Shown one piece after another: positions 16,544-39,667 of a DNA stretch of 64,000 nucleotides (position 1 is its first letter; each line of letters begins with the position of its first letter). Source of the stretch: Erythrobacter sp. (lineage in GTDB: Bacteria > Pseudomonadota > Alphaproteobacteria > Sphingomonadales > Sphingomonadaceae); the NCBI RefSeq assembly GCF_039988855.1, contig NZ_JBDXIY010000006.1, forward strand, positions 53,072 through 117,071, in the 5' to 3' direction. Both the position numbers and the translations under genes were made by a program. Below the pieces are notes generated by a model. The model made no database searches. It was not told the DNA's origin and saw only the letters and a program-made list of their open reading frames with translations.

Positions 16544-17056
16544 GTGCGCCGGCGCGATTTTATCCATATCGCGCCCGTTGCGTTCGCGGGAACCGGTGCC
16601 GCAGCAGCCGTCTGGCCGCTTATCGACAGCATGAACCCATCGGCCGACGTGGTTGCACAAGCTACGATCGAAGTCGATTTGCAACCGATTGAGCCAGGTC
16701 AACGTATCACTGTGAGCTGGCGCGAGCAGCCGGTATTCATCGTGCGGCGCACAGCTGAAGAGATCGCGCGAGCCAGAGCCGACGATGCCTCTTCAGGGCT
16801 GATCGATCCAGAGACGGACGCTGCGCGCGTGCAGCGACCAGAGTGGCTTGTGGTGGTGGGCGTCTGCACGCATCTTGGCTGCATTCCGTTGGGACAGGGA
16901 GTGGGTGAAAATCGCGGAAGATATGGGGGATGGTTTTGTCCCTGCCACGGGTCAATATACGACAACTCCGGACGCGTGCGGAAAGGGCCGGCACCGAAGA
17001 ACTTGGTCGTTCCGCAATACGTGATCAGCGACGATCTAAAGCTCTCGATCGGCTGA
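16544..17056 (+). CDS. petA: Rieske [2Fe-2S] subunit of ubiquinol-cytochrome c reductase (PetA-like). No petB/petC follows.
   Basis: Tat-like RRRDFI N-terminus and Rieske boxes CTHLGC and CPCHGS. GTG start with GGAAGG upstream. No cytochrome b ORF lies downstream. Confidence 0.8.
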
Positions 17057-17312
17057 TGAACTTGGGGGTGAGCCGGGCCGCCTCGAATGCGAGCAAGAAA
17101 TGCACCGACGACATCGGGGAACTTCGGAACTATGCAAAGTGCCCCGCATGCCAGGCAATGCACTTACACCTTTAGAGAATGCCCACCGTCCGTAGCCCCT
17201 TTTTCTCCAGTCTGCCTGCGCTGGTGCCGAGACGAGCGCGGACCAGGCTGAAAACCCTGAGCATCAATCCCCTTCGGTGAAACCATAGCAGCCAGCTCAC
17301 CCTTCTTAAAAA

Positions 17313-17981
17313 CTAGCGCACCGGCTCGCCCATTGGGGGGGAGGGTGAGACGGCGGTGTCTCTACGCAGAAAGAACATCAGGACGATCACGCTCATCGCC
17401 GCGGCAAAGAAGCACCAGACCGATATGAACCAAGTGAGATAGAACGCGCCTGCCGCAAGAAAGGAGACGATTGCTCCGACCCCAAACCAGTTGACCCAGC
17501 GATGGCTGGATAGCAGCGGGCTGACACAGGTGCCCAAGACATACAGTGTCATAACGATGCCAACGTAGAAGTGGGGGGATTCGTAGTCGATATGACCGTC
17601 GCCGGCTGTCGCGACGATTGGCAAGCGGATAAGGAAATAGAGCAAGTAGAGCCCAACCAGGGTTCCGCCAATCGCCGTCGCCATGAGGGCCTTTCGGCGC
17701 CAGGCTACCCTCTCGAGCATATAAACCGCCACCGGGACATAGATCGGCCACAGAACATGCGAAAAGATCGAATAGAGATAGGTCAGAACTGTCTTCAGCA
17801 CCGGCGCCTTGTCAGGAAATGTCAGCCAAAGTGCGCCCTCGATCAATTGCTGGACGCCAAACAGAATCGGAATCAGCGCGTAGGGTCTCTCGCCGCTGTT
17901 GCGCGCCATTCGCATTGTGAAGGCACCGGTTGCCAACAGCACGGTGCCGGCGGCGAAACTCGCTGTGGCGGAAAAACACAT
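17313..17981 (-). CDS. Polytopic membrane protein of unknown function
   Basis: 222 aa with about 7 hydrophobic helices. I recognise no catalytic motif. Confidence 0.55.
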   Translation of the reverse strand: MCFSATASFAAGTVLLATGAFTMRMARNSGERPYALIPILFGVQQLIEGALWLTFPDKAPVLKTVLTYLYSIFSHVLWPIYVPVAVYMLERVAWRRKALMATAIGGTLVGLYLLYFLIRLPIVATAGDGHIDYESPHFYVGIVMTLYVLGTCVSPLLSSHRWVNWFGVGAIVSFLAAGAFYLTWFISVWCFFAAAMSVIVLMFFLRRDTAVSPSPPMGEPVR

Positions 17982-18156
17982 ACAATCTAACCTCGCTGAT
18001 TGGACGCCCGAATATTTCTTCGTGCACCCATATTACACACGGGCCAAGTACCAAGCTTGCCGTGCGCTGTAAGTATGATTTCAGCTCGACCATGGTCTCG
18101 CTCGCAAGTACGGACGTTTGTGCACCGCGAGGTTTACAAGGCCCAGGGGAAAAACG

Positions 18157-18171
18157 GCACACCGTACGCAG
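18157..18171 (+). repeat. Left direct repeat (putative attL core)
   Basis: Exact 15-mer GCACACCGTACGCAG, followed by TAGCACTGC. The right copy is followed by CGGTAGCTGC. Confidence 0.65.
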
Positions 18172-18327
18172 TAGCACTGCTGTGTTTTGGGAAAAAGTGC
18201 AATAAAATCAGTGCGCGAAACGCTCAAAGTGCTCGGCAGAGAGGGCGCTGTTGAATGCCGTGCGGTCCCCGCAAATGACAGTATTTCCAAGGGTTCTGGG
18301 GGCAGTTTGCATGAGGGCGAATGCCAT

Positions 18328-19500
18328 ATGGTCCCCAAGCGTCGAATGTCTGCGCGCAGAGCGCTTCTCGATGGCAATTTTGCCCGCCGAGAACTGCCGC
18401 TGCGCGAACGCGAATACTGCATCTGGGACACTGAGCTTGCGGGCTTTGGATTGCGCGTAAGGCCGAGCGGCAACTACTTTTGGTTCGTTCGCTTACGCCA
18501 TCGCGGGAAGCATCGCCGCATCACCCTTGGCCGGACCGACGAGCTTGAGGCGGGGCTGGCAAGGGCGCAGGCCCGCCGCATTCTTGCGGAAGCCGCGCTT
18601 GATGGTTTGCCCAAACGCGCAGTGGTCAAGGCCACCCCGACGATGACCGATTTCGTTGAGGCCTATTGGGATGATCTTTCGCGCGTCTGGAAGCCCTCGA
18701 CCACCAAGCGGAACTGGGACGCTTGGCGGCTCACCATCAAGCCTACGTTTGGCGACACGCGCGTGGCGGACATCCTCCCACCAGACATCCACCGCTGGCG
18801 CGATGGATGCGCGGGAGAGAGCGAGGTGAAGTTCAACCGCGCCGTCCCCGTGCTCTCCGCGCTGTTCAAGTATGCCGAAGCGCTCAAGATGCGTCGGCCA
18901 GGTTCGAACCCCTGCCGAGGGATGCCACGATACAAGCGGCAAAGCGTCGAGCGCTATTTGACACCAGCCGAATATCGCCGGATCGGGGCAGCTTTGCGTG
19001 AGGCCGAGGCAGACCGACCGGCAGAGGTCGCAATCGCTCGCCTACTATTGTTTACCGGCGCACGCGTTGGTGAGATCAAGAATCTGCGCTGGGAGTGGGT
19101 GAAACCCCCACGACTTGTGCTGCCAGATAGCAAGACCGGCCCCAAGGTGATTTGGCTCAACACGCAGGCCCAGGATGTCCTTGCCGGGATCGAGCGGCGC
19201 GATGACAGCGCTCTCGTTTTTCCGAACCGGACCGGAAAATGTCCGCTGAACTTCGATACCTGGTGGTACAACTTCCGGCGGCGCTGCGCTTTGCCCGACG
19301 TTCGCATCCATGATCTGCGCCACAGCTTCGCCTCGACCGCGATCATGGACAACGTGCCGCTATCGACCATTGGCAAGCTGCTTGGCCACAAGCTGGTCGA
19401 GACGACCGCAAAATATGCTCACCTGTCCGATGACGTGATCGGCGAAGCCGCCGAGCGGGTTTCCGGCTCGCTGGCGCAAGCGATTGGCATCAGGCCATGA
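18328..19500 (+). CDS. int: Tyrosine-type site-specific integrase (P4-like, arm-binding N-terminus), copy 1
   Basis: FTGARVGEI (Arg), RIHDLRHSFAS (H-x-x-R) and LGHKLVETTAKYAHL (His..Tyr). I chose the start at ATG 18328. The track ORF begins at 18187. Confidence 0.88.
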   Translation: MVPKRRMSARRALLDGNFARRELPLREREYCIWDTELAGFGLRVRPSGNYFWFVRLRHRGKHRRITLGRTDELEAGLARAQARRILAEAALDGLPKRAVVKATPTMTDFVEAYWDDLSRVWKPSTTKRNWDAWRLTIKPTFGDTRVADILPPDIHRWRDGCAGESEVKFNRAVPVLSALFKYAEALKMRRPGSNPCRGMPRYKRQSVERYLTPAEYRRIGAALREAEADRPAEVAIARLLLFTGARVGEIKNLRWEWVKPPRLVLPDSKTGPKVIWLNTQAQDVLAGIERRDDSALVFPNRTGKCPLNFDTWWYNFRRRCALPDVRIHDLRHSFASTAIMDNVPLSTIGKLLGHKLVETTAKYAHLSDDVIGEAAERVSGSLAQAIGIRP

Positions 19501-20705
19501 CCGCCGCCAGTCTAAAGAAGATTGTCGAGGAGGCGCTTGCCGAGGTCGGGGCAACCGTAAACTTCAAGCTCGTTCCTAAAGGCAAGGCGCGGACCACGAC
19601 CTGGCTTGGTGTCGAGCACGGCTTTGGCATCCGGCATTATCCGAGCGGTCGAAACGTCTACATTGTGCAGACCCGCATGGCAGGTCGTATGCGCACGGTG
19701 ACAATCGGGCCTGCATCGGTCCTTACCCGCTACCAGGCGCAGATGGTTGCACGCCGCGTCATCGCATACGCGCAGGTCGGTCGCGATCCGGCGACCGAAC
19801 GCCAGCGCATCCGCTCCGCTCCTAGCTTCGCCGACTTCGTGACCGAGTATTGGGGTCGCTGGGCACCACGCTGGAAAGCATCGACCCTGGATACGCACAC
19901 CGGCTACCGACGCCGCTATATTGATGACGCCTTCGCTGGCGTCTACATTGACGAACTGAACGAGGGTTACGTCACCAGCTGGTTTGCGGACCTCAACAAT
20001 CGGACCGGGCCGGGAGCATCGAACCGGACTTTCGAAATCCTCAAGCACATGCTGAACAAGGCAGAGGAATGGGGCTACCGGCTCGAAAATACCAATCCAT
20101 GCCGTTCTGTTCGACCCAATCGCAAGCGCCAGTGCGAGCGCTTCCTTTCGAACGAAGAACTAGCCCGTCTGGGTGCCGAGCTGGCGAAGCTGCGATCATC
20201 GGACGACCGCACTAAGCAGTGTGTGGGCGCGGCTATCACGCTCCTGCTGCTGACCGGCTGTCGGAAGAGCGAAATCCTCACGCTCGAATGGAGCGATATC
20301 AAGGGCAATCGCCTGCACCTGCGCGACAGCAAGACCGGCCCACGAACGGTCTGGCTCGGATCGGCAGCCCGCGAAGTGATCGCCGGGCTGCCACGCTTCG
20401 AGAGGGTTCCATACCCGTTCTGGAATTACAGCTACCGCAAGCCACTTCGCTGTGTGAACGGATTCTGGCGCAGGCTCAGAGACGAAGCAGGATTACCCGG
20501 CGTTCGCATCCACGACCTGCGCCACACCTTCGCGAGTCACGCGGCGATGAACAAAGAGACATTGCCGATGATCGGACGTCTCCTCGGGCACGCCAATGTT
20601 CAGACCACGGCCCGGTATGCGCACTTGGACGACAGGCATTTGCTCGAAGCGGCACAGCAGATCGGGGATGCGGTGGGCGCCCTTATGGACACGCACAGGT
20701 GTTAG
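19497..20705 (+). CDS. int: Tyrosine-type site-specific integrase, copy 2
   Basis: LTGCRKSEI, RIHDLRHTFAS and LGHANVQTTARYAHL. ATGA overlap with integrase 1. Confidence 0.88.
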   Translation: MTAASLKKIVEEALAEVGATVNFKLVPKGKARTTTWLGVEHGFGIRHYPSGRNVYIVQTRMAGRMRTVTIGPASVLTRYQAQMVARRVIAYAQVGRDPATERQRIRSAPSFADFVTEYWGRWAPRWKASTLDTHTGYRRRYIDDAFAGVYIDELNEGYVTSWFADLNNRTGPGASNRTFEILKHMLNKAEEWGYRLENTNPCRSVRPNRKRQCERFLSNEELARLGAELAKLRSSDDRTKQCVGAAITLLLLTGCRKSEILTLEWSDIKGNRLHLRDSKTGPRTVWLGSAAREVIAGLPRFERVPYPFWNYSYRKPLRCVNGFWRRLRDEAGLPGVRIHDLRHTFASHAAMNKETLPMIGRLLGHANVQTTARYAHLDDRHLLEAAQQIGDAVGALMDTHRC

Positions 20706-20825
20706 CGCGCTAGAATATGTGGATAGCGCAGCAAAGTGCAGCACTATGCTGTATTCCGCTCCACCTTGCCAAGCTATCACGAAGACGGTACTGGGCTGGA
20801 ACGTAAAGAGAACAAAGGGGCTACG

Positions 20826-21017
20826 ATGGCTGACAAGATTCAAAGAATTTCGGTCAATCTGACTCCCAAGGAGGATGCTGAGCTTCGTCAATATGCTGAC
20901 CGACTCCAAGTCTCTTGCTCTTGGGTGGCTCGGCAAGCGATCGTTCAATATCTCGAAGAACACGCTGGCCCACAAAGTGAGCTTCCGTTGGCCCGAACGA
21001 CGGGAGGCGCGAAATGA
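20826..21017 (+). CDS. Ribbon-helix-helix (CopG/Arc/MetJ-like) DNA-binding protein
   Basis: MADKIQRISVNLTPKEDAELRQYADRLQVSCSWVARQAIVQYLEEH has the RHH beta-alpha-alpha pattern. AAGGGG RBS. ATGA overlap with the methyltransferase start. Confidence 0.7.
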   Translation: MADKIQRISVNLTPKEDAELRQYADRLQVSCSWVARQAIVQYLEEHAGPQSELPLARTTGGAK

Positions 21018-22153
21018 CCTCTGAACTCACGGCGATCGACTTGTTTTGTGGTGCGGGGGGCCTTTCCGAAGGACTCCGCCAAGCTGGTTTCCATGTGCTT
21101 GCTGGCAACGATTTCGATGAAGCAGCCGGGGCGACTTATGCTCGAACGCACAAGGAAGCACGCTTCCTCAAAGGACCGATTCAGAACCTAACCGTGGAAG
21201 ACTTCTTGCGCGCGGCTCGATTGAAGCCCGGTCAGTTGAGCGTGCTCGCCGGAGGCCCACCGTGTCAGGCTTACAGTGTCTACAACCATCAACGAGGAAT
21301 GCACGACGAGAGGAGCTTCCTGTTCAAGGAATACCTGCGCCTTGTTGATGGGTTGGCCCCCGAATGGGTAATCATGGAAAACGTCATGGGGCTGCTCTCG
21401 ACCGGACAGGGTGCAGCAGTGCGAGCAATCACCGAGGGCTTCAAGTCACTTGGCTATGACATTGCATTCAAAGTTCTCAAAGCCGAGGAATATGGTGTGC
21501 CGCAGGAGAGACGCCGCATCGTCTTCATCGGCAATCGCATGGGAAAGCCTATCAACTTCCCGTCTGTGACGCACGGCCCTGAGTTGGAACCGCTAACAAC
21601 CGTTTTCGATGCGATCTCCGATCTGCCAAGATTGAAGAACGGTGAGGCATGGCTCAATTCTCATTATGCCTCTGAACCAAGGTCAAGCTACCAAACTGAA
21701 ATGCGGCGTGGGACGCCTGGCGTTCTCAATCATGCCGCCCCGCGCTTGGCGAAGGTCAATGAGCAGCGGATGCGTCATATTCCGCCGGGAGGGAGCTGGC
21801 GAGACATTCCAATAGAGTTGCTACCAGCAGGCATGAAGAAGGCACGGCGCTGCGATCACACCAAGCGATACGGACGGCTGGAATGGCATGGGTTGTCTTC
21901 GACAATCCTCACAAAGTGTGACATCCACTGGGGAGCATATATCCACCCAGACGATGATCGTTCTTTGACCGTGCGCGAGGCCGCCCGATTTCAGTCGTTC
22001 CCTGACTGGTTCGAGTTCGAAGGAAGTAGAACTGAGCAGTTCGTCCAAGTTGGGAATGCAGTGCCCCCACTTCTTGGGCGCGCGTTGGGCGAAGAAATTA
22101 AGAAAAGTATCTTGGGGCAGGCTGCCAAGCGTCGGCTTCGGGTCGCGGCTTAG
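21014..22153 (+). CDS. dcm: DNA (cytosine-5)-methyltransferase
   Basis: All C5-MTase motifs are seen: I DLFCGAGG, IV GGPPCQAYS, VI VIMENVMGL, VIII VPQERRRIVFIG, IX LTVREAARFQSFPDWFEF, X GNAVPPLL. Confidence 0.92.
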   Translation: MTSELTAIDLFCGAGGLSEGLRQAGFHVLAGNDFDEAAGATYARTHKEARFLKGPIQNLTVEDFLRAARLKPGQLSVLAGGPPCQAYSVYNHQRGMHDERSFLFKEYLRLVDGLAPEWVIMENVMGLLSTGQGAAVRAITEGFKSLGYDIAFKVLKAEEYGVPQERRRIVFIGNRMGKPINFPSVTHGPELEPLTTVFDAISDLPRLKNGEAWLNSHYASEPRSSYQTEMRRGTPGVLNHAAPRLAKVNEQRMRHIPPGGSWRDIPIELLPAGMKKARRCDHTKRYGRLEWHGLSSTILTKCDIHWGAYIHPDDDRSLTVREAARFQSFPDWFEFEGSRTEQFVQVGNAVPPLLGRALGEEIKKSILGQAAKRRLRVAA

Positions 22154-22240
22154 CCACCCGCCTCAGTTCGATCTCATAAGATTGCCAAAAGGAGCCAGGG
22201 GCCTAAGGTCTCTGGCTTCTGACTTTTGCAGTAAGATCCA

Positions 22241-23953
22241 ATGATTATTTCAAAGCTTAAAATTGATAATTTTCGCGGCATCACGGCGCTCGAAATCGAT
22301 TTCGATCAGACGACGGTCGTTTTTGGTTCGAATAACACCGGCAAGTCGACAGTTCTGGCAGCTATACAAATGGTCCTAGGCAGGGCCGTGGGGCGCCGGT
22401 CAGCTGCTTTCTCGGAATATGATTTTCATTTGGACCAAGATGGCCAACCGACAGACGCGGCGCCGATTAAGATCGAGCTGACTTTCAAGGAAACTGAACC
22501 TGATGATTGGTCTGACGCGATGGTTCAGCAACTTGGACCAGTGGTGGGTATCGGAGGCGACGGTCTCCAAATTGTTACATTGCGCCTTAGTGGCCGGTAC
22601 GACGAGGCAATCGGTTCGTTCGTCTCAGCATTTGATTTCCTAAACCCGAACGGCGATCCCCTGCCAGCTAATGCCTCCGCCCTGCGGCGCATTCAGCAGA
22701 TTGTCCCTGCTTTTTATCTTGCGGCGCTCAGAGATGCGGCTCGCGAGTTTCGATCAAACGGGGCTTTTTGGGGACCCTTCGTCAAATCGCTAAAGATTGA
22801 TCCCGATATAAGGGAAGAGATTGAAGCTGAAATTGCACAACTCAATCAGAGGGTTCTCGATGCACATACTGGCTTTGATGCCGTAAAGGCACGGCTTGGG
22901 CAATCTGCTCAGTTGGTGCCTCTTGGCGGAGCTGACGATCCTGTCAGCATCGATGCGTTACCCAGCCGAGTATTTGACATACTCGCGAGAACTCAAGTTT
23001 TGCTCTCAGGGGTATCAGGTGCGCGCCTTCCCCTCGCGCAGCACGGTGAGGGAACTCAGAGCTTGGCTGTAATTTGTCTTTTCGATGCATTTCTCGATGC
23101 TCGCCTGGTTGGTGAGTATGGCGAGGACGCTGTCCCCATCTTGACCCTAGAGGAGCCGGAAGCGCATCTGCACCCATCGGCGGTGCGTGCGGTCGGTCAG
23201 CTGATCTCCCGGTTGGGAGGGCAAAAAATCATCACTACCCATTCCGGAGACTTGCTTGCTTCCGTTCCATTGAAAAGCTTGCGGCGTCTGCGACGGGTCG
23301 GAAATGAGATCGACGTCTTCAAGATTGAGGACGGCATGATCGATGAGCCCACATTGAGTCGCTTGGACCATCAGATTCGACGTCTCCGTGGCTCCATACT
23401 TTTTGCACGGGTGTGGCTGTTGGTGGAGGGTGAAACCGATGAGGTCATTATCCAGGAGGCAGCACGTGTTGCAGGTATTGATCTCTTCGCCGCCGGCGTA
23501 GGTTGCTTCAAGTTTACCGAGCTCGGTATTGAACCGTATATTCGTTTGGCTGACGCCCTTGGAATTCACTGGATTTGCGTCTCAGACGGAGATCCAGCGG
23601 GTCAGGGCTACGCAAACACCGCAGTCGGGCTGCTTGGTGGCAAGCCTGCGCAGGATCACATCAGGACACTGCCAGCCTGGGATATGGAAACCTATCTTTG
23701 CATGAATGGATTTGGCGACATCTTTGAGGCCAGCGCTTCTCCTCAGAAGGTTGCGGCCAATCCAAATCCACATGCGCAGGGTACGCAAGAGTATTGGCAG
23801 CACCTGGTAAACAAACATCAACCCACTAAGGGGAAGCCGGTCCGCGCTACTCAGGTCGTGGATCGCCTCGATCAACAAGGCGCAGCGTCGATACCTCCAT
23901 TCCTGGTGGACCTAGCCAATTTCGCCGTGGCCAAAGGGAGGGAAGGTCTATGA
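22241..23953 (+). CDS. gajA: OLD-family ATP-dependent endonuclease (ABC-type ATPase plus Toprim), GajA-like
   Basis: Walker A GSNNTGKST, Walker B/H-loop LTLEEPEAHLHP and Toprim LLVEGETDEV...ICVSDGDPAG. 570 aa. The region has lower GC. Confidence 0.8.
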   Translation: MIISKLKIDNFRGITALEIDFDQTTVVFGSNNTGKSTVLAAIQMVLGRAVGRRSAAFSEYDFHLDQDGQPTDAAPIKIELTFKETEPDDWSDAMVQQLGPVVGIGGDGLQIVTLRLSGRYDEAIGSFVSAFDFLNPNGDPLPANASALRRIQQIVPAFYLAALRDAAREFRSNGAFWGPFVKSLKIDPDIREEIEAEIAQLNQRVLDAHTGFDAVKARLGQSAQLVPLGGADDPVSIDALPSRVFDILARTQVLLSGVSGARLPLAQHGEGTQSLAVICLFDAFLDARLVGEYGEDAVPILTLEEPEAHLHPSAVRAVGQLISRLGGQKIITTHSGDLLASVPLKSLRRLRRVGNEIDVFKIEDGMIDEPTLSRLDHQIRRLRGSILFARVWLLVEGETDEVIIQEAARVAGIDLFAAGVGCFKFTELGIEPYIRLADALGIHWICVSDGDPAGQGYANTAVGLLGGKPAQDHIRTLPAWDMETYLCMNGFGDIFEASASPQKVAANPNPHAQGTQEYWQHLVNKHQPTKGKPVRATQVVDRLDQQGAASIPPFLVDLANFAVAKGREGL

Positions 23954-25872
23954 GCGAATTTCTCAGTTCATTGAATGAGCGGCAAGCCGCAGCAGTTTCT
24001 TGGCAGGACGGACCACTCTTGGTTCTCGCCGGTCCCGGCTCAGGTAAGACGACAGTTCTAACGAGACGCATCGGGCGCATGATCCAACAATCGCCGGATG
24101 ATCATTATCGCGTTCTAGGATTGACCTTCACGAATAAAGCAGCAGCCGAAATGCGCGCGCGTATCGAAAAGCTGGCACCTGGCTCTGGCAATCGCGTCCT
24201 GTTGACCACTTTCCATTCGTTCGCAGGCGATCTTTTGCGTCAACACGGCCACCTGCTCGGCCTGAAACCGGACTTTACGATCCTGACTCAAGACGGCGAG
24301 CGAATAGGATTGTTAGACGAAGCCATCGCAGATGCCGGTCGATCTTTTGAGGTCTCGGAATTCAGCGGTGAACGACTACTGCCTTTGATCAACAGGTTAC
24401 TTGAGAACGATGTTGGTGACGAGCGAGTTGAGAAGATCGTCGCGACGCTGCCGGAGGAACGACGAGCGTCGGTGAGCGCTGTTTATCGAGCTTACAAGGA
24501 CAGGCTGATTGCGGCCAACAGCCTCGACTTCCCCTCGATGATTTCAGAAGCAGTGCGAGTGCTAAGGACGCATGCAGCCGTAGCGAAGCAAATCCGCCGC
24601 ATCTATCGCTACGTTTGCGTCGACGAATTCCAAGACACCAATTTCGCGCAATACAGCTTGCTCATTTGTTTGGTGGCTTCTGACTCGAGAAACCTCTTCG
24701 TGGTCGCGGATGACGACCAGATAATCTACCAATGGAATGGGGCTAGCCCAGCGCGCCTTGAAGGTTTGAAGCGCGATTTCGAGATGACCGTGCTTCAGCT
24801 CCCCACGAATTATCGATGCCCACCAGCGGTCATCGATATCGCCAACAAACTTATCGCCAACAACTCCACGCGAACGGCAAACAAGGATCAGCTTCTTGCC
24901 GAAAAGCCCGCGACTGAAGATCAGGGACTCAATCTTTATCATTTTCCAGACTTTGAAAGTGAGGTCGCGTGGGTTGCTCAAGACATTTCGGCGAAATCGG
25001 CTTCAGAGAGAGAACGATGCGTAGTCCTTGCGCGGACACGAAAGACGCTCGAGCGAGCGGTCGAGCACCTAGGCAACAATGGTGTGACCGCTTATTTGGC
25101 AAACCGAAAAGATGAATTTGTAAGCGCCCCGCTGCGCTGGCTCCACGCTGCGCTGCGACTGGCCAATAGTTCAAATGATCGAGAGCAAACTCGTAGACTG
25201 ACCAGAGCCTTTTTTGCACTGGAAGGACTGCAGATTGACCCGGCTGGTGTGACTTCTGCAGCCGAGGCATTCGAGGGTAGCGCTCTTCGTTCGTTTCTTA
25301 ACTTGGCCCTTGAGCGCAACGAGCTTAGTGATCACACGCGGAAGTATCTCGTGTCCGCATTGCCACAATTGGTCGAGCGGCTCGATTTTCGATCATTCTG
25401 CGCATCCACCTTCGAATGGTTCGCAGGTTTGCCCGATCAACCATTCCTCGCTTCCTCAAACGACTTCTCCGAGTTCGAAGATGAGAAGAAAGTTTGGGAG
25501 GCCCTGGTCGCTGATATTGAGGCCCAGTTTGGAAAGGAAAGTGTGACGCTTCATATGCTCCTTCAGGAGCTTGACCTCCGATCAAAAACGCCGCCTCAGC
25601 CCAAGGAAGCAGTGCCATGTTTTACGATTCATGCCTCGAAAGGAATGGAGTTCGGGCATGTCTATTTGATCGCCATGGTCGAGGACCAGCTTCCGAGCTG
25701 GGCAGCAGTCAAGAAAGGGGCCGAAAGCCCCGAAATGCAGGAAGAGCGGCGAAACTGTTTCGTGGCGATCACTAGGACCGAAGATAGCCTAACTCTGACC
25801 TACTCCGACAAGGTATTTGGTTGGCAGAAGGCCCCCTCGCGTTTCCTCCGGGAGATGGGATTCCAAGTCTGA
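23950..25872 (+). CDS. gajB: UvrD/PcrA-like superfamily 1 helicase, GajB-like
   Basis: LNERQAAAV, AGPGSGKTTVL, VCVDEFQDTN, NYRCP, TIHASKGMEFGHVYLI and AITRTEDSLTL. ATGA overlap with the gajA-like gene. Confidence 0.8.
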   Translation: MSEFLSSLNERQAAAVSWQDGPLLVLAGPGSGKTTVLTRRIGRMIQQSPDDHYRVLGLTFTNKAAAEMRARIEKLAPGSGNRVLLTTFHSFAGDLLRQHGHLLGLKPDFTILTQDGERIGLLDEAIADAGRSFEVSEFSGERLLPLINRLLENDVGDERVEKIVATLPEERRASVSAVYRAYKDRLIAANSLDFPSMISEAVRVLRTHAAVAKQIRRIYRYVCVDEFQDTNFAQYSLLICLVASDSRNLFVVADDDQIIYQWNGASPARLEGLKRDFEMTVLQLPTNYRCPPAVIDIANKLIANNSTRTANKDQLLAEKPATEDQGLNLYHFPDFESEVAWVAQDISAKSASERERCVVLARTRKTLERAVEHLGNNGVTAYLANRKDEFVSAPLRWLHAALRLANSSNDREQTRRLTRAFFALEGLQIDPAGVTSAAEAFEGSALRSFLNLALERNELSDHTRKYLVSALPQLVERLDFRSFCASTFEWFAGLPDQPFLASSNDFSEFEDEKKVWEALVADIEAQFGKESVTLHMLLQELDLRSKTPPQPKEAVPCFTIHASKGMEFGHVYLIAMVEDQLPSWAAVKKGAESPEMQEERRNCFVAITRTEDSLTLTYSDKVFGWQKAPSRFLREMGFQV

Positions 25873-25915
25873 AGTCGATCAATCGGACGCCGTTCGCACG
25901 TCAAGTTTGTGCGCT

Positions 25916-26815
25916 TTAACTCCCCAAAGCGAGCTTGATTGCAGACGCATAGACATTCTGGTCGGGGAGATTCATTGGCGACGTAAATGCCGTAGCGACT
26001 TGATCCACGGTTGTCGTGAATTGGGCGTTGAACTCCAATGGTCGTTGCATCGTTGAGGGATCTACATCGCCAAGTTGGTAGGACCTGAAAGAAAGGGTAC
26101 CTGGACCTACTGGATACTCGTGCAGGTTATTGCCCAATCTGTCTCTGATCTTTTGATAGACCTGCCCCGGGCAGACGAAAAACAGGCCTTTGGAGCACCG
26201 CGCCTCTCGACGCAGGACATGTCCCTTGTAGATCAGCTGAGGAAGAATGCGCTTGTTCACATTCTCCCAATTCATGCCAGACTTACTCCAGCCATCGAAG
26301 GTCTCTCCAGCAAAATAGGCGTCTGATTGATCCCTATAATTGCCCGTCGTGTCTATCGTTTGAACCTCCACGGCGGTAAATTCTTGGAGCTCGCCATCGG
26401 CATCGATGCGGGCCAATATCCAGTCAACGTAATATGCGCCACTCTTCGCCCCATCGGCTCGTTTAGGGCGAGGAAGGGGGAGTTCGCCTCCCCATCCTTT
26501 TCCAAAGGCAATGACCTCAGAACCGGTCAGCGACTCCGATCCTTTTCTTGCCCTTCCTTCAGCGGCGGTAATGAGTTCGATCTGCTGGCCGAAGACTTCG
26601 GCGGCTACTTCACGAAGCACGCGATAGTTCTCCGCATACAGACGATTTGGACAGCAGATTATTGGTTCACTTGTCGTCTGCCGAACGGAGCAGGCGCCGT
26701 GGTTTGGCTTAATGCAGGGGCTAACCGTGTAGGGGCATTGCTTTCCGGAAATGTATCCTGACGCAAGTGGCGAGAGTGGTGGAAATCCAAAAAACTCAAC
26801 AATCTTCAGTGCCAT
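25916..26815 (-). CDS. Type II restriction endonuclease, NotI family
   Basis: An N-terminal EFFGFP plus a Cys cluster (CPYTVSPC..GACSV..IICCPNR), a catalytic-core-like YYVDWILARID..FTAVEVQTIDTTGNY and NWENVNKRILPQLIYKG. These parallel NotI (AEFFGH.., ..LVCPNR, ..VLEIQTMDFHGSY, ..NVFKRTFYQM) as I recall it. Confidence 0.65.
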   Translation of the reverse strand: MALKIVEFFGFPPLSPLASGYISGKQCPYTVSPCIKPNHGACSVRQTTSEPIICCPNRLYAENYRVLREVAAEVFGQQIELITAAEGRARKGSESLTGSEVIAFGKGWGGELPLPRPKRADGAKSGAYYVDWILARIDADGELQEFTAVEVQTIDTTGNYRDQSDAYFAGETFDGWSKSGMNWENVNKRILPQLIYKGHVLRREARCSKGLFFVCPGQVYQKIRDRLGNNLHEYPVGPGTLSFRSYQLGDVDPSTMQRPLEFNAQFTTTVDQVATAFTSPMNLPDQNVYASAIKLALGS

Positions 26816-27142
26816 CGCGCGGGTCCCCTCTGCAGACCCTTATCGCAAGATTTCGCGGCGCGAAAGGCGCGGGAATTTCGTTCGTCGCGTGTGGGTGAGG
26901 TCGCGGAGAAATTGCTCAACCACGGACCGAGTTGATTGCATGCTCGTGAATGCTATTTGGTCCCCATTCCGGAACAATGAGCAAAATCCAGGGCCAATCC
27001 GGAACAAAAGCTCTCTATAAGATGCGGCGCTCGGCTGTCGCGCGCCGCCGCCTATCCCACTTGAAATTCAACAATTTTCGGCGGGATTCTTTCAGGCAAA
27101 TTTCCTGGTCACTAACGCGCACTTGAGAATGGGCTTGACCCA

Positions 27143-27157
27143 GCACACCGTACGCAG
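27143..27157 (+). repeat. Right direct repeat (putative attR core)
   Basis: Exact second copy of GCACACCGTACGCAG. Confidence 0.65.
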
Positions 27158-27321
27158 CGGTAGCTGCATAGGATGGCAAAAAAGCGCGAAGTAACAGAAG
27201 CATCGCTAGTCCGAAGGGGCGAGCAATCAGGTGGTAGCCAAGGCGCAGGAGTATCCCGTCGCTGGACCTGCGCATCCCACCATTGTGGGCACCGGGATGG
27301 AAGGCTATCGCTTAACCTACT

Positions 27322-28230
27322 ATGCCAGCGCGTCTTTCCGCAATCTTTGTGATGCTTCTTTGGGCGTCCTGCTATCCGCTCATAACGGTCGGTCTCGATA
27401 GCGCGCCCCATCTCACCTTCGCCGTGCTGCGCGCGGTTCTTGCAGGCACCACGTTACTGGCGGTCGGTATCATTCTAAGAAAGCCCTTTCCGCGCGATGG
27501 AAGCATCTGGGGATGGATCATTCTTGCCGGTCTCGGCATGACGGGGCTGGGTTACTACGGGATGTTCCATGCTGCGGAGTTCGTTTCGCCCGGCCTTGCA
27601 ACCGTCATCGCCAACAGCCAACCCCTCATCGCGGCAGGCCTTGCCTTTCTTTTTCTCCGTGAGCGCCTGTCTTCCAAGGGCTGGATCGGGTTATGGCTCG
27701 GCTTTGCGGGAATCCTCATCATTGCTGGCCCGCGAATTCTCCAAGGTCCGCTGGCGCTCTCAACCGGCTTTGCATATGTGCTGCTTGCGGCCTTCGGCGT
27801 TGCCGTGGGCAACATCGCCATCAAGAAGCTCTCGGGGCGCGCCGACGCAGCGATCGCCATGGGCCTTCAACTCCTCATCGGCGCTGTCCCGCTCGCGTTT
27901 CTGGCTTTGCTTACCGAAGATCAGGGCCAAATCGACTGGTCGCCGGTTTTCATCGCGAGCCTGCTTGGGTTGGCGATCCCAGGTACAGCCCTCGCATTCT
28001 GGCTGTGGCAATATACGCTCGGCAAAATCGAACTCTCGAAGGCTAATGTATTCAGCTTCCTGGTGCCCGTTTTCGGTTTAACGATCGGCGCTGCCTTCTT
28101 CGGTGAAAGGCTTACACCCCTGATCATCATGGGCACAGCAATTGCAACCGCGGGCGTATGGCTGACGACCATAAAGTCATCGAGTGACGTTCAGCCGAAA
28201 GCGAAAGGAGCGAGGGACGGGCGCGCATAA
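27322..28230 (+). CDS. EamA/DMT-family transporter
   Basis: 302 aa and 10 TM helices in two EamA-like halves. Confidence 0.8.
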   Translation: MPARLSAIFVMLLWASCYPLITVGLDSAPHLTFAVLRAVLAGTTLLAVGIILRKPFPRDGSIWGWIILAGLGMTGLGYYGMFHAAEFVSPGLATVIANSQPLIAAGLAFLFLRERLSSKGWIGLWLGFAGILIIAGPRILQGPLALSTGFAYVLLAAFGVAVGNIAIKKLSGRADAAIAMGLQLLIGAVPLAFLALLTEDQGQIDWSPVFIASLLGLAIPGTALAFWLWQYTLGKIELSKANVFSFLVPVFGLTIGAAFFGERLTPLIIMGTAIATAGVWLTTIKSSSDVQPKAKGARDGRA

Positions 28231-28310
28231 GGGATGCTCTTCGTGAAAAAATCAGGTGGCGATGGGCTGCAGCAAAGGGCGGGCGATGACTTCGTTGGCG
28301 GATGCTAAAG

Positions 28311-29639
28311 CTAAAACTCCTCAAGCGCGCTCGAAAGCCTGGGCAAACGCGTCGCCAGGGCCGCAGCTATGCAGTCATGAACAGGTTCGGCGAAGTCCAC
28401 CGGCATCGCTTCGCGCGCTACCGTCGGCGCATCACGTGCGCGGTCCATCAGTTCGTTGATGGCTGCACGCATGAGGCCTTTGCCAAGCCCCGCTGACTTG
28501 CCCGACTGGACAAAATGCCGACCGGTCACCTCGTTCAGCCGGTAGTGACGGTTGGTGCCTGCGGACATCGCGAGCCGGAACCTGTTCTGCGCAATCTGGT
28601 CGGAGTCGACGGCCGGTTGGGCCGAGAGCACATCGTAGAAGGGGGTCAGGCTGTAGCGTCCGCCGGGCTTCAGGAAGATACTGAAATTCTTGGCGTGCCC
28701 GTCCGTTGCACCAATGAGCCAGAAGAGGATCTGGCTCTTGAAAAAGGCGGCTGCGTCGGCTTGCGGATCGTCAGCACCGCGCAACAGGCCGAAGATATCC
28801 TTCATGTTCGGGCCGCCATCGCTCTGATATTTGTGCGTGGGCGGATAGCCGAGTGCTTGGCAGCAGTCCTCTTGCGGCAGACGCAGGATTTGCTTGGCGT
28901 TGCGCCAGTGCCTGTCGAACCGTTCGACGACGAGAACTCGGCGCTGGCCGACGGTCGCAATCTCTGTCGCTGCGACCGACAGGCCGAACGCCTTCATCAG
29001 CGTCATGCAATAGTGCTCGTTGTCGACGCTGTTCGACATGTCGATCATCCCGTCGGCGCTGGGTATCTGTCCAAGTTGCGGCTTCAGGATGTGAGTTGTC
29101 GGGGTCACACCGGCCGGTCGGTGCCATTTCCCATCGATTCGAAGCAGGGCCGTCTTCTCCTGCGCGCCGGCAACCGAGATCCTGAATTCCTGTTTCCGAT
29201 CGACGCCAAGTGGAGCCCGTGCGAGATCGGCGAGAAGGGCCTCGACTTCGGTGTCGCTGACCGGTTCGCTTTCGATGTCGGTACTCTGCGCCTGATCTGC
29301 GCCTTCGGGCAGGAACTGCATGGCACCGACGCAGTCGCGTCCGATGGCTTCGAGTAGGCTGTAGAAGTCGGTGCCCTGAGCGCCCATGCGCTCGGCTACG
29401 CGGCGGCGTACTGCATCCCTGTCCGGGAGAAGATTGTCGAACACGGCGATGACCGGAGCGCCACGATAGGCCGCCGGGGTCAGAGGCAGCGAGAGCGACG
29501 CTGCGAAGCGGTGCTCCCAGGCCAGCCACTCTTCGGAATACCGGAAACTGATTGCACCGCTCGCCGCCTTTTCGAGGCGGCCGACCTGCCTGCCGTTGAT
29601 AAGTACATCGAGGGGCGCATGGGTCTTTTTGCGCGCCAT
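28311..29639 (-). CDS. hipA: Type II toxin HipA-family serine/threonine kinase
   Basis: N-terminal LDVLINGRQVGRL, then ISVAGAQEKTALL and the catalytic TDGHAKNFSIFL. 442 aa. Confidence 0.9.
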   Translation of the reverse strand: MARKKTHAPLDVLINGRQVGRLEKAASGAISFRYSEEWLAWEHRFAASLSLPLTPAAYRGAPVIAVFDNLLPDRDAVRRRVAERMGAQGTDFYSLLEAIGRDCVGAMQFLPEGADQAQSTDIESEPVSDTEVEALLADLARAPLGVDRKQEFRISVAGAQEKTALLRIDGKWHRPAGVTPTTHILKPQLGQIPSADGMIDMSNSVDNEHYCMTLMKAFGLSVAATEIATVGQRRVLVVERFDRHWRNAKQILRLPQEDCCQALGYPPTHKYQSDGGPNMKDIFGLLRGADDPQADAAAFFKSQILFWLIGATDGHAKNFSIFLKPGGRYSLTPFYDVLSAQPAVDSDQIAQNRFRLAMSAGTNRHYRLNEVTGRHFVQSGKSAGLGKGLMRAAINELMDRARDAPTVAREAMPVDFAEPVHDCIAAALATRLPRLSSALEEF

Positions 29640-29888
29640 TTAGAAGACGTCCTCAATCGAGGCGCCGTCCTGCTGACGCGGCACGATCTGAAGATCGAGG
29701 CCGAGGACTGCGATGACACTGATGAGCGTGTCCAGCTTTGTTCCTTCGCTTCCGTTCTCTATGGCCGAGATGGTTTTCTGCTGCGTCCCGGCGAGTCTGG
29801 CGAGCTCGGTTTGGGTCAGGCCCTTGCCGAGGCGATGGGTCTGGATCACGGCTCCGAGTTGACTGGGAAGCCTGACGATCTGGCGCAT
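29640..29888 (-). CDS. hipB: HipB-like XRE-family antitoxin
   Basis: MRQIVRLPSQLGAVIQTHRLGKGLTQTELARLAGTQQKTISAIENG is an HTH_XRE pattern. The stop abuts the hipA start. I chose the internal ATG at 29888 over the track start at 29987. Confidence 0.85.
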   Translation of the reverse strand: MRQIVRLPSQLGAVIQTHRLGKGLTQTELARLAGTQQKTISAIENGSEGTKLDTLISVIAVLGLDLQIVPRQQDGASIEDVF

Positions 29889-38624: not shown

Positions 38625-38681
38625 AGAACCGGCAATGTGGATTTATCCGCTGCCGCGAATTCCGCACAGGTCGCAAAGCCT

Positions 38682-39521: not shown

Positions 39522-39667
39522 GATGATCCTCTGCCATAAATCGGCAAGTCGGGTTGATCTCGTTCCCCGTTTCACGCTGTCACTTTCAGCGGGGTACGCC
39601 GCCTGTCAGCTCGGTTCGGCCTTGTCGGCGGAACACTGGCACACCTTTGGCCAGATCCAGGGAGACT

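What the first reader, a model, noticed from the sequence alone, without database searches (positions are those of the whole stretch)
18157..27157. 9-kb integrative island bounded by a 15-bp direct repeat, with a non-tRNA target in a divergent promoter region
Seen: GCACACCGTACGCAG occurs at 18157-18171 and again at 27143-27157, and imperfect similarity continues just downstream (TAGCACTGC versus CGGTAGCTGC). A 15-mer shared by two flanks of a few hundred bp is very unlikely by chance. All genes between the copies are accessory: two integrases, an RHH protein, a C5-MTase, an OLD ATPase, a UvrD helicase and a NotI-like nuclease. The integrases sit directly inside the left repeat, and the 22.2-25.9 kb part is visibly more AT-rich than the flanks. 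Joining the flanks gives a 354-bp divergent intergenic region between the membrane-protein gene (17313-17981, minus) and the EamA gene (27322, plus). I see no tRNA or tmRNA gene at either end. Inference: this is a site-specific island whose att site lies in an intergenic promoter region and whose whole cargo is anti-phage/anti-plasmid defence.
Basis: partly seen in the sequence, partly recalled or inferred. Interest (0 to 1): 0.8.

Follow-up and report, generated by a model that had tools for sequence, protein, structure and literature searches.

The report
Dual-integrase defence island at hotspot
A 9-kb mobile island carrying two anti-phage systems (Gabija and a restriction-modification system) sits between exact 15-bp repeats in a Qipengyuania-type genome. 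It is built on an always-paired set of two integrase genes that carries many other cargoes in related bacteria.

Summary
GCACACCGTACGCAG occurs exactly twice in the window (18157-18171, 27143-27157) and marks the two ends of an 8,986-bp integrative island.

The ends are corroborated independently:
- In Erythrobacter westpacificensis the two flanking genes are adjacent, 343 bp apart (354 predicted).
- Related islands elsewhere lose homology to the window exactly at 18157 and at about 27161.
- Tandem arrays carry a single core copy between islands.
- In 141 fetched loci the 15-mer occurs only at island junctions.

The cargo is Gabija (GajA/GajB) plus a type II restriction-modification system (RHH regulator, C5 methylase, NotI-like nuclease). 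No tRNA, tmRNA or Rfam RNA lies at the target.

The part worth keeping is the integration module:
- The two integrases are an obligate, co-diverging pair of DUF4102 (P4/IntSXT-type) tyrosine recombinases. In 72 of 72 cases Int1 is followed at once by Int2. Both keep all catalytic residues.
- The attP architecture is conserved: an invariant GCACACC 171-172 nt upstream of int1, a co-varying palindrome, three arm-type repeats, and no excisionase gene.
- The same module carries restriction-modification systems, pili, secretion systems and cytochromes across Sphingomonadales.

This is a new variant of a known kind. Mobility and the need for both integrases are inferred, not shown.

The parts
18157..18171 (+). 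attL core: the left copy of the 15-bp direct repeat. Its first 7 bases, GCACACC, are invariant in the family.
   Evidence: Exact repeat. Homology of related islands to the window starts at 18157. GCACACC lies 171-172 nt upstream of the Int1 start in about 55 of 60 loci examined; 4 show a variant core and 1 a different spacing.
18168..18180 (+). P' palindrome GCAGT-AGC-ACTGC, overlapping the last 4 bases of the core.
   Evidence: 44 of 53 att-like sequences have a perfect stem of 4 bp or more starting at core position 12. At least 10 different stem sequences occur, which means compensatory changes. The terminator scan also picks it up as a stem-loop.
18172..18327 (+). P' arm of attP, also the int1 leader. 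Contains the conserved block GGGAAAAAGYGCAATAAAATCAGT and two arm-type repeats, at 18253-18270 and at 18319-18336; the second overlaps the int1 start codon.
   Evidence: GAATGCNNNNNGGTCCCC occurs only 3 times in 64 kb, all at island ends. The same three positions are occupied in 7 of 7 complete islands. The block is conserved across genera.
18328..19500 (+). int1: tyrosine integrase, 390 aa, with a DUF4102/Arm-DNA-bind_3 N-terminus, a SAM-like core-binding domain and a catalytic domain.
   Evidence: Pfam. Gene calls of 390 aa in public assemblies. Catalytic R-K-H-R-H-Y invariant in 63 homologues.
19497..20705 (+). int2: paralogous tyrosine integrase, 402 aa, 35% identical to Int1. Its start overlaps the int1 stop by 4 nt.
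   Evidence: It follows Int1 at once in 72 of 72 cases. Co-divergence r=0.97 over 54 pairs. Catalytic residues invariant in 64 homologues. The conserved left module ends at 20669-20671.
20826..21017 (+). RHH (CopG-type) protein, 63 aa. Its stop overlaps the methylase start. It is most likely the regulator of the restriction-modification system, not an excisionase.
   Evidence: Pfam RHH_1. Homologues sit beside methylase genes in L060 and L052. In L066 the homologue is at the far end of the cargo, not next to int2.
21014..22153 (+). C5 cytosine DNA methyltransferase (type II).
   Evidence: PF00145 at 1.8e-66. PADLOC MTase_II at 5.9e-124.
22241..23953 (+). gajA: OLD-family ATPase with TOPRIM nuclease domain (Gabija).
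   Evidence: PADLOC GajA PDLC00094 at 4.7e-196 over 1-566 of 569. Pfam DUF2813, AAA_15 and OLD-like TOPRIM.
23950..25872 (+). gajB: UvrD-type helicase (Gabija), overlapping gajA by 4 nt.
   Evidence: PADLOC GajB PDLC00114 at 2.4e-267 over 2-631 of 635. Pfam UvrD-helicase and UvrD_C.
25916..26815 (-). Type II restriction endonuclease, NotI-like fold.
   Evidence: PADLOC REase_II PDLC03465 at 7.7e-42, full length. Pfam NotI match is weak and partial.
26816..27142 (+). P arm of attP. Contains the arm-type repeat at 26948-26965, followed by ATTCCGGAACAA (a second copy at 26996-27007), and the conserved right-end block 27027-27142, which ends ...CGCGCACTTGAGAATGGGCTTGACCCA.
   Evidence: The right-end block is 89.6% identical in L064/L065, and that homology stops at 27161. 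The consensus CGCAnnnnGARAA-N4-5-YTTGACC-N1-2 precedes GCACACC in the other islands whose right end was identified.
27143..27157 (+). attR core: the right copy of the 15-bp repeat.
   Evidence: In POYF01000002.1 homology to the window on the EamA side begins exactly at 27143.
27154..27167 (+). B' palindrome GCAGC-GGTA-GCTGC on the target side. The flank to about 27250 resembles island P' ends at roughly 60% by eye.
   Evidence: A second island in POYF01000002.1 carries its own roughly 105-bp look-alike of 27143-27248.
17313..17981 (-). Left flanking gene: DUF6629 membrane protein in a core-genome neighbourhood (Rieske protein, PGK, aldolase, IlvD).
27322..28230 (+). Right flanking gene: EamA transporter. 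It is the first gene of a HipAB and copper/metal-resistance region that is shared between genera.

Best explanation
The segment 18157-27142 (8,986 bp, counting one core copy) is a non-conjugative, site-specific integrative island. It entered by recombination between its attP and a short target that contains GCACACC-N-TAC followed by a small palindrome. That event left the 15-bp identity block at both junctions.

The mobility module has three parts:
- The leftmost 2.5 kb: the P' arm, int1 and int2.
- The last 116-330 bp: the P arm.
- Three direct arm-type repeats (consensus GAWGGCYATNTGGTCCCC) placed about 95 and 160 nt right of the core and about 195 nt left of it.

The two integrases are catalytically complete paralogues of the DUF4102 (P4/IntSXT) type. 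They are inherited as one unit. I infer that they act together on an asymmetric core, in the manner of XerC/XerD: one paralogue on the TTGACC-side half-site and the other on the TAC-palindrome side. I also infer that both are held in an intasome through the arm sites. Strand exchange lies inside the first 13 bases of the core, most likely at the invariant GCACACC.

The module contains no excisionase gene, so directionality would have to come from the pair itself or from host factors.

The cargo is defence only. It consists of a type II restriction-modification system (RHH regulator, C5 methylase, NotI-like nuclease) with a Gabija operon (gajA-gajB) lying between its methylase and nuclease genes.

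Shown here: the repeats, the ends, the modularity, the pairing, the conserved catalytic residues and the repeated motifs. Inferred: present-day mobility, joint action of the two integrases, the roles of the motifs and the position of cleavage.
For: Repeat:
- The 15-mer is exact and unique to the two junctions.
- It occurs only at island junctions in 141 fetched loci.

Empty arrangement:
- In E. westpacificensis JCM 18014 and two MAGs, DUF6629 and EamA are neighbours with a 343-bp spacer.
- Homology to the window ends at 18144 and resumes at 27261.

Ends:
- Eight independent loci share about 89% identity with the window from 18157 (+/-3) to 20669-20671, then diverge.
- L064/L065 share 27027-27161 at the other end.

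Core:
- GCACACC lies 171-172 nt upstream of the Int1 ATG in about 55 of 60 loci, with unrelated DNA to its left.

Complete islands:
- Six further islands have a second core copy 7.7-10.6 kb downstream, preceded by a conserved TTGACC block.

Tandem arrays and alternative occupancy:
- In POYF01000002.1 the order is island 1, one core copy, island 2, one core copy, EamA.
- The A. atlanticus plasmid has island A plus island B. L062 has island B directly at the same 91-nt left arm, and identity breaks after core position 13.

Integrase pair:
- 72 of 72 Int1 C-termini are followed at once by Int2.
- Identities co-vary with r=0.97 over 54 pairs.
- All six catalytic residues are invariant in 63 and 64 homologues.
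- A pair at 34% identity on the Shewanella MR-1 megaplasmid has CCACACC 169 nt upstream.

Arm sites:
- Three copies in 64 kb, all at the island ends.
- The same three positions are used in 7 of 7 islands.

Palindrome:
- It co-varies, and it is self-consistent within attL and within attR. That places the crossover to its left.

Cargo:
- PADLOC gives full-length GajA, GajB, MTase_II and REase_II matches.
- G+C is lower over the cargo.
Against: - No empty site carrying the core was found. The exact predicted attB 27-mer is absent from the JGI metagenome collection.
- The E. westpacificensis spacer is diverged over the central ~115 bp and has no core. The pre-insertion sequence therefore cannot be reconstructed base by base.
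- No circular attP junction was found (viral contigs only).
- Every close relative examined carries the island at this site. It may be fixed and no longer moving.
- The target-side flank 27158-27250 looks like the left end of an island. The 'attB' here may be a relic of an older element rather than a primary chromosomal target.
- Joint action of the two integrases, the half-site assignment and the absence of an RDF rest on sequence patterns only.
Confidence: 0.85

Rival explanations
1. The island did arrive by site-specific integration but is now a fixed, immobile resident of this lineage, effectively a domesticated defence locus. The intact repeats and integrase genes would then be recent history rather than current activity.
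For: - All genomes and metagenome contigs with identical flanking proteins carry it at the same place at 99.9-100% identity.
- No empty site with the core was found and no circle junction.
- Two relatives show decay by IS insertion: CP087588.1 and CP011770.1.
Against: - Both integrases are intact, with all catalytic residues.
- The 15/15 repeat is undamaged.
- The same module at about 89% identity sits at other sites with other cargo.
- A second island has been added next to it in POYF01000002.1, so the site and the family are still active.
Confidence: 0.3
2. The element is a transposon-like, multi-recombinase element of the SE/GInt/Tn554 kind. It would move by copy-out and paste-in and never leave an empty donor site, rather than being a classical excising island.
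For: - It has two tyrosine recombinase genes at one end, is not mobilisable, and is found in several unrelated sequence contexts that share only a short core.
- No empty site with the core was found.
- SEs are described as leaving no empty site (PMC10214605).
Against: - The tfp and srap/TnpC-like core genes are absent; int1 and int2 overlap by 4 nt and the conserved module ends with int2.
- Both integrases are ordinary-sized and carry arm-binding domains.
- The ends carry a 13-15-bp direct repeat and arm-type repeats rather than imperfect terminal inverted repeats with a 6-bp footprint.
- Tandem arrays share a single core copy.
Confidence: 0.08
3. The two integrase genes belong to two separate islands that lie in tandem, one of them reduced to its integrase. 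Only one of them would serve this island.
For: Tandem arrays of islands do occur at this core. A chimeric single integrase exists in L019/L130.
Against: - There is no core copy between int1 and int2, and the genes overlap by 4 nt.
- The pair is intact in 72 of 72 cases down to 47%/42% identity and co-diverges with r=0.97.
- The single-integrase cases are deletion chimeras or decayed copies.
Confidence: 0.03
4. The 15-mer is a chance or REP-like repeat, and the region is a variable segment exchanged by homologous recombination through its flanks.
For: Croceicoccus naphthovorans shares the right part of the island together with the EamA/metal region at 99.9% identity. That looks like transfer of a larger block, not of the island alone.
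Against: - There are two copies only in 64 kb, against 0.16 expected.
- The repeat is found only at island junctions in 141 loci.
- Breakpoints of unrelated islands fall on it to the base.
Confidence: 0.02

Closest known systems
Genomic islands and satellites with P4-type / IntSXT-subgroup integrases (DUF4102 arm-binding domain)
   Same: - Both integrases have the DUF4102/Arm-DNA-bind_3 N-terminus, a SAM-like core-binding domain and a full catalytic domain. PMC8138268 gives the DUF4102 N-terminus as the hallmark of the IntSXT subgroup.
- The integrase gene is next to attL and reads inward.
- The island has direct repeats at both ends.
- attP is complex, with arm-type repeats on both sides of the core.
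   Different: - There are two integrases instead of one, always together.
- The target is not a tRNA/tmRNA gene or the flank of a conserved gene. It is a short core plus palindrome found in varied contexts.
- No excisionase gene is present in the conserved module.
ICEPmu1 / ICEMh1 of Pasteurellaceae
   Same: As described in PMC6861422, these carry a pair of element-encoded tyrosine recombinases thought to work in tandem. They have an 11-13-bp direct repeat at the ends and a conserved palindrome next to the repeat.
   Different: [quoted passage not shown] Here there are no conjugation genes, no tRNA, and the island is 9 kb. Whether their recombinases are related to Int1/Int2 was not tested.
Strand-biased circularizing integrative elements (SE), GInt, Tn554 and RIT elements
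   Same: Small, non-mobilisable integrative elements whose movement depends on more than one tyrosine recombinase gene placed at one end (PMC10214605).
   Different: - SEs need intA-tfp-intB-srap; GInt and RIT have three recombinase-like genes; Tn554 has TnpC. None of these extra genes is present here.
- Those elements have imperfect terminal inverted repeats and 6-bp footprints.
- SEs are reported only in Gammaproteobacteria. This family is mainly in Sphingomonadales.
XerC/XerD at dif
   Same: Two paralogous tyrosine recombinases that would each bind one half of an asymmetric core. This is proposed here from the lack of symmetry around GCACACC.
   Different: Xer proteins are host housekeeping enzymes without arm-binding domains and without arm sites. 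Here the pair is element-borne. NCBIfam XerC/XerD scores are far below cut-off.
Gabija and type II restriction-modification defence islands
   Same: GajA and GajB match full length, with a C5 methylase and a type II nuclease. Defence systems are clustered on a mobile island.
   Different: Nothing unusual in the systems themselves. The Gabija operon lies between the methylase and nuclease genes of the restriction-modification system.

Membership tests
Site-specific integrative island (tyrosine-integrase genomic island) | Integrase gene adjacent to one end, reading inward | tested here: met
   int1 starts 171 nt right of the attL core.
Site-specific integrative island (tyrosine-integrase genomic island) | Direct repeat (att core) at both junctions | tested here: met
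   15/15 exact, unique in 64 kb. Six other family members have core copies at both ends.
Site-specific integrative island (tyrosine-integrase genomic island) | Uninterrupted (empty) site in relatives | tested here: inconclusive
   The flanking genes are adjacent in E. westpacificensis and two MAGs, with a 343-bp spacer. That spacer lacks the core, and the exact predicted attB was not found.
Site-specific integrative island (tyrosine-integrase genomic island) | Excision to a circle carrying attP | not testable with these tools
   Only a scan of viral contigs for the junction was possible; it gave 0 hits.
P4-type / IntSXT-subgroup integrase | N-terminal DUF4102 (Arm-DNA-bind_3) domain plus tyrosine recombinase catalytic domain with R-K-H-R-H-Y | tested here: met
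   Pfam hits for both proteins. Catalytic residues are invariant.
P4-type / IntSXT-subgroup integrase | Integration into a tRNA/tmRNA gene or next to a conserved gene | tested here: not met
   No tRNA, tmRNA or Rfam RNA. The flanks of family members are unrelated.
Gabija | GajA (ABC-type ATPase plus TOPRIM, OLD family) directly followed by GajB (UvrD-like helicase) | tested here: met
   PDLC00094 at 4.7e-196 and PDLC00114 at 2.4e-267, both full length; the genes overlap by 4 nt.
Gabija | Protection against phage | not testable with these tools
   Needs infection assays.
Type II restriction-modification system | Separate methyltransferase and endonuclease genes in one locus | tested here: met
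   MTase_II at 5.9e-124 and REase_II at 7.7e-42. The specificity is unknown; GCGGCCGC is not avoided in the window, with 5 sites against 7.5 expected.
[quoted passage not shown] | Core operon intA-tfp-intB plus srap | tested here: not met
   int1 and int2 overlap with nothing between them. The conserved module ends with int2. Definition from PMC10214605.
[quoted passage not shown] | 13-19-bp imperfect terminal inverted repeats with 6-bp footprint | tested here: not met
   The ends carry a 13-15-bp direct repeat. No terminal inverted repeat appeared among the inverted repeats reported for 17000-28500.
Tn554 / GInt / RIT | TnpC-like third gene (Tn554) or three recombinase-like genes (GInt, RIT) | tested here: not met
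   There are only two recombinase genes. The next gene is an RHH protein that belongs to the cargo.
Integrative and conjugative element (including ICEPmu1/ICEMh1) | Relaxase and mating-pair formation genes | tested here: not met
   All seven genes are accounted for as integrases or defence genes.
IMEX (element exploiting host XerCD at dif) | No recombinase of its own; dif-like site | tested here: not met
   The element encodes its own two integrases. NCBIfam XerC/XerD scores are 45-65 bits against cut-offs above 329.

The most novel reading that the evidence does not exclude
Int1 and Int2 form an obligate heteromeric integrase: an element-borne, arm-binding counterpart of XerC/XerD. Each paralogue would recognise one half of an asymmetric core (TTGACC-NN | GCACACC | N-TAC-palindrome). 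The pair would set the direction of recombination without a separate excisionase. This two-gene, roughly 2.9-kb cassette (2.5 kb at the left end plus up to about 0.33 kb at the right end) would be a self-sufficient vehicle. It shuttles defence systems, pili, secretion systems and respiratory genes among Sphingomonadales, with relatives in Shewanella, and builds tandem arrays at shared hotspots.
Probability: 0.35. Interest if true: 0.65.

Novelty: new variant of a known kind. Interest (0 to 1): 0.48.

Why it matters
As a defence island it is ordinary: Gabija and a restriction-modification system on a small integrative element.

What matters is the vehicle:
- It is a compact, sharply delimited integration cassette with two co-inherited, catalytically complete arm-binding integrases.
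- Its core sequence is invariant.
- It has no excisionase.
- It has interchangeable cargo and is found in dozens of public contigs from several genera.

If both integrases are needed together, this would be a heteromeric lambda/P4-type integrase. I found no description of adjacent DUF4102 integrase pairs in the literature I could search. It would be useful for two purposes. One is understanding how directionality and site choice can be split between two subunits. The other is tracing how defence systems move in marine Alphaproteobacteria. The precise ends given here make the experiments straightforward.

Tried and rejected
1. Exact predicted empty site (AAACG + core + CGGTAGC) in JGI metagenome contigs: no hit. 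Uninformative, because the island seems fixed in this species.
2. Circular junction (P arm + core + P') in viral contigs: no hit.
3. A hidden RNA gene at the target: none. ARAGORN and Rfam at gathering score found nothing, and permissive scans of both junctions gave only noise.
4. Sigma-70 promoter scan at both junctions, to test 'promoter region': no site.
5. NotI-site avoidance, to guess the specificity of the nuclease: 5 sites against 7.5 expected, so no signal.
6. RHH protein as excisionase: rejected, because its homologues travel with methylase genes and not with int2. The small ORF after int2 in L020 is unrelated.
7. The 5.5-kb 'different island' between the same 15-mers in Tsuneonella suprasediminis (L019) as independent proof of integration: rejected. 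Its single integrase is a chimera of the Int1 arm domain and another integrase's catalytic domain. It is a deletion derivative of a tandem array.
8. Enterobacterial plasmid hits at about 28% identity as further pairs: the one inspected (Citrobacter pN354-1) has a single integrase.
9. Literature searches for adjacent or tandem integrase pairs: nothing specific beyond the SE, GInt, Tn554 and ICEPmu1 families.
10. Inverted-repeat half-sites around GCACACC: no symmetry seen by eye between the TTGACC side and the TAC side. This is why a heteromeric model is proposed rather than shown.

Full report
THE OBSERVATION

GCACACCGTACGCAG occurs at 18157-18171 and 27143-27157 on the + strand and nowhere else in the 64-kb window, even with two mismatches. 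Shuffles give 0.16 matches on average.

- int1, whose true start is the ATG at 18328 (390 aa, the same length as most gene calls in public assemblies).
- int2, 19497-20705, overlapping the int1 stop by 4 nt.
- A 63-aa RHH protein, 20826-21017.
- A C5 methylase, 21014-22153.
- An OLD-family ATPase, 22241-23953.
- A UvrD helicase, 23950-25872.
- A NotI-like nuclease on the minus strand, 25916-26815.

G+C falls to 0.52-0.57 between 22.0 and 27.0 kb, against 0.60-0.64 outside. There is no tRNA or tmRNA in the window. No Rfam family reaches gathering score, and permissive scans of both junctions give only noise. The arithmetic of the 354-bp joined spacer is right.

WHAT THE CARGO IS

- The ATPase and helicase are full-length matches to PADLOC GajA (4.7e-196) and GajB (2.4e-267). 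This is a Gabija system.
- The methylase and nuclease match type II models at 5.9e-124 and 7.7e-42.
- The RHH protein overlaps the methylase start. Its homologues sit beside methylase genes in other islands. In L066 the homologue lies at the far end of the cargo, away from the integrases. I therefore read it as the regulator of the restriction-modification system, not as an excisionase.

The Gabija operon lies between the two halves of the restriction-modification system.

ARE THE REPEATS THE ENDS OF AN INSERTED ELEMENT?

Five independent lines say yes.

1. Empty arrangement in a related species.
   - A scan of one genome per species with the DUF6629 protein found Erythrobacter westpacificensis JCM 18014 and two MAGs in which DUF6629 and EamA are neighbours, 343 bp apart.
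   - Homology to the window stops at 18144 and resumes at 27261.

2. Breakpoints in related islands.
   - Islands in eight other contigs, and on a plasmid of Aurantiacibacter atlanticus, share about 89% identity with the window from 18157 (+/-3 nt) to 20669-20671, then carry different genes.
   - Two of them (L064, L065) also share 27027-27161 at the other end.
   - The conserved parts of the element therefore begin on the first base of the left repeat and end four bases after the right repeat.

3. Core position across the family.
   - In about 55 of the 60 loci recovered with Int1, the heptamer GCACACC lies 171-172 nt upstream of the Int1 start codon.
   - The DNA to its left is unrelated from locus to locus.

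4. Tandem arrays with a single core copy between islands.
   - In POYF01000002.1 the order is DUF6629, core, this island, core with one mismatch, a second island of about 20 kb, exact core, EamA.
   - Homology to the window on the EamA side starts exactly at 27143.
   - On the A. atlanticus plasmid, an island A and an island B follow one another. In metagenome contig L062, island B sits directly at the same left arm. There 104 nt are identical up to core position 13, then the sequences diverge.

5. The 15-mer is not dispersed.

Two caveats:
- The spacer of E. westpacificensis is strongly diverged over its central ~115 bp and has no core.
- The exact predicted empty site was not found in the metagenome collection.

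All close relatives of the window's organism carry the island. That organism is Qipengyuania citrea by a source's name for the identical Int1.

THE INTEGRATION MODULE

Both integrases have the DUF4102/Arm-DNA-bind_3 N-terminus, a SAM-like core-binding domain and a catalytic domain. According to PMC8138268, the DUF4102 N-terminus characterises the IntSXT subgroup, which includes the P4 integrase.

- They are 35% identical paralogues, each with R, K, H-x-x-R, H and Y.
- Among the loci recovered with Int1 alone, 72 of 72 Int1 C-termini with room downstream are followed within 0-13 nt by an Int2 homologue.
- The identities of the two proteins to the window pair co-vary with r=0.97 over 54 pairs, down to 47%/42%.
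- All six catalytic residues are invariant in 63 and 64 distinct homologues.
- The only single integrases are deletion chimeras (L019, L130, L131: the Int1 arm domain fused to another catalytic domain) and a decayed copy (L050).
- A pair at 34% identity on the Shewanella oneidensis MR-1 megaplasmid has CCACACC 169 nt upstream of its first gene.

The pair is therefore an old, obligate unit. It is not two islands side by side.

THE ATTACHMENT SITE

To the right of GCACACC the family consensus has three parts:
- N-TAY.
- A palindrome with a 4-6-bp stem and a 2-6-nt loop.
- In the window's lineage, ATGGGAAAAA.GC..TAAAATCAGT.

The palindrome is kept by compensatory changes. Its stems include GCAGT/ACTGC, GCGGT/ACCGC, GCGGC/GCCGC, GCAAGC/GCTTGC, GCAC/GTGC, GCATC/GATGC and others. 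44 of 53 att-like sequences have a perfect stem starting at core position 12.

In the window, the attL palindrome (GCAGT-AGC-ACTGC) and the attR palindrome (GCAGC-GGTA-GCTGC) are each self-consistent. The crossover must therefore lie to their left. The L062/plasmid comparison puts it within the first 13 bases, and only GCACACC is invariant.

To the left of the core, island right ends share CGCAnnnnGARAA-N4-5-YTTGACC-N1-2.

The 18-mer GAATGCNNNNNGGTCCCC occurs three times in 64 kb, at 18253, 18319 (over the int1 start codon) and 26948. The same three positions carry the motif in 7 of 7 complete islands whose Int1 is 71-100% identical. I read these as arm-type sites for the DUF4102 domains. This gives an attP of about 400 bp, like those of lambda- and P4-type elements.

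I saw no symmetry between the TTGACC side and the TAC side of the core. Together with the obligate pairing, this is why I propose that the two paralogues bind different half-sites. That step is inference.

The conserved module holds no third gene, so no excisionase is evident.

CARGO ELSEWHERE AND CONTEXT

The same module carries many cargoes:
- A XamI-like restriction-modification system (L064).
- A type IIG enzyme with a methylase and a PLD nuclease (L066).
- Chaperone-usher pili (L083).
- A type I secretion system with a giant RTX protein (E. longus, L049).
- Methylases and large unknown proteins (Sphingomonas, L052).
- Cytochrome oxidase genes (the plasmid, L138).

Defence is common but not exclusive.

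The window's left flank is core genome (Rieske protein, PGK, aldolase, IlvD). The right flank (EamA, HipAB, copper and other metal-resistance genes, through to the window end) is different:
- It is 99.9% identical in Croceicoccus naphthovorans, together with the right part of the island.
- It recurs in hundreds of public assemblies.

The island therefore sits at the border of another horizontally moving region. The target-side flank 27158-27250 resembles island left ends. The attB here may be the relic of an earlier element.

COMPARISON WITH WHAT IS KNOWN

The element works like a classical P4/IntSXT-type integrative island. It differs in having an obligate second integrase, a non-tRNA short target, and no excisionase.

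Elements with several tyrosine recombinases are known: SE, GInt, RIT and Tn554 (PMC10214605). Their defining extra genes (tfp, srap or TnpC, or a third recombinase) and their terminal inverted repeats with 6-bp footprints are absent here.

ICEPmu1/ICEMh1 are described as carrying a XerCD-like pair, with a direct repeat and a neighbouring palindrome in tRNA-Leu (PMC6861422). That is the nearest described parallel, but they are large conjugative elements in a tRNA gene.

Searches of the held literature for adjacent or tandem integrase pairs found nothing specific to DUF4102 pairs.

VERDICT

The finding is real and its interpretation is essentially right. As a defence island it is a new member of a known kind. 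The dual-integrase cassette that carries it is a new variant of a known kind. It has a clear, testable mechanism, but no experimental support yet.

Noticed in passing
window 27322-64000 (EamA, HipA 28311-29639, HipB 29640-29888, CopB/multicopper oxidase, P-type ATPase 39554-41881, second multicopper oxidase 49449-51068, RND efflux 54935-60667): The whole right flank is a metal-resistance region that looks horizontally mobile. It is 99.9% identical in Croceicoccus naphthovorans CP011770.1. Its AcrB-type protein is found, residue for residue, in 677 blocks of the public assembly index. In one genome a different integrase sits beside part of it (L057).
   Followed up: partly
L022 9658-10000 (Erythrobacter westpacificensis) versus window 18145-18171 plus 27158-27260: The DUF6629-EamA spacer is 90-96% identical at both edges. 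Its central ~115 bp is almost unalignable between the two species although the length is kept (343 versus 354 bp). The att core exists only in the lineage that carries islands. The origin of the core-bearing segment is unexplained.
   Followed up: partly
L019 8712-9794 (Tsuneonella suprasediminis Ery12); also L130, L131: This is a chimeric integrase. Residues 1-160 of its ORF are identical to the corresponding part of the window's upstream-extended int1 ORF, that is, the first ~113 residues of Int1 including the arm-binding domain. They are fused, with the core-binding domain missing, to a catalytic domain 49% identical to Int2. It is apparently a deletion across a tandem array that left a 5.5-kb remnant between two intact 15-mers.
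   Followed up: yes
L139 5796-8462 (Shewanella oneidensis MR-1 megaplasmid NC_004349.1): A distant integrase pair (376 and 456 aa, overlapping) has CCACACC 169 nt upstream. A P-arm-like CTTGAGAAT...GACCAGA lies to its left, and AAATCCCC repeats lie further upstream. This suggests that the same att architecture reaches Gammaproteobacteria.
   Followed up: partly
L006/L015 (CP087588.1) and L007 (CP011770.1): Copies of this island are being destroyed by IS elements. int2 is split by two transposase insertions, gajA is truncated, and gajB is replaced by an IS21-type element in CP087588.1. In CP011770.1 the left half is deleted next to an IS3-family element, and another IS lies between the P arm and the core.
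   Followed up: no
window 38637-39521: An ORF with a Schlafen AlbA_2 domain lies inside the metal-resistance region, next to the P-type ATPase gene. It was not examined further.
   Followed up: no
L062 7213-9738 versus L141 6241-6242: A 2.5-kb insertion lies 91 nt to the left of the att core in the metagenome contig, relative to the Aurantiacibacter atlanticus plasmid. Its content was not examined.
   Followed up: no
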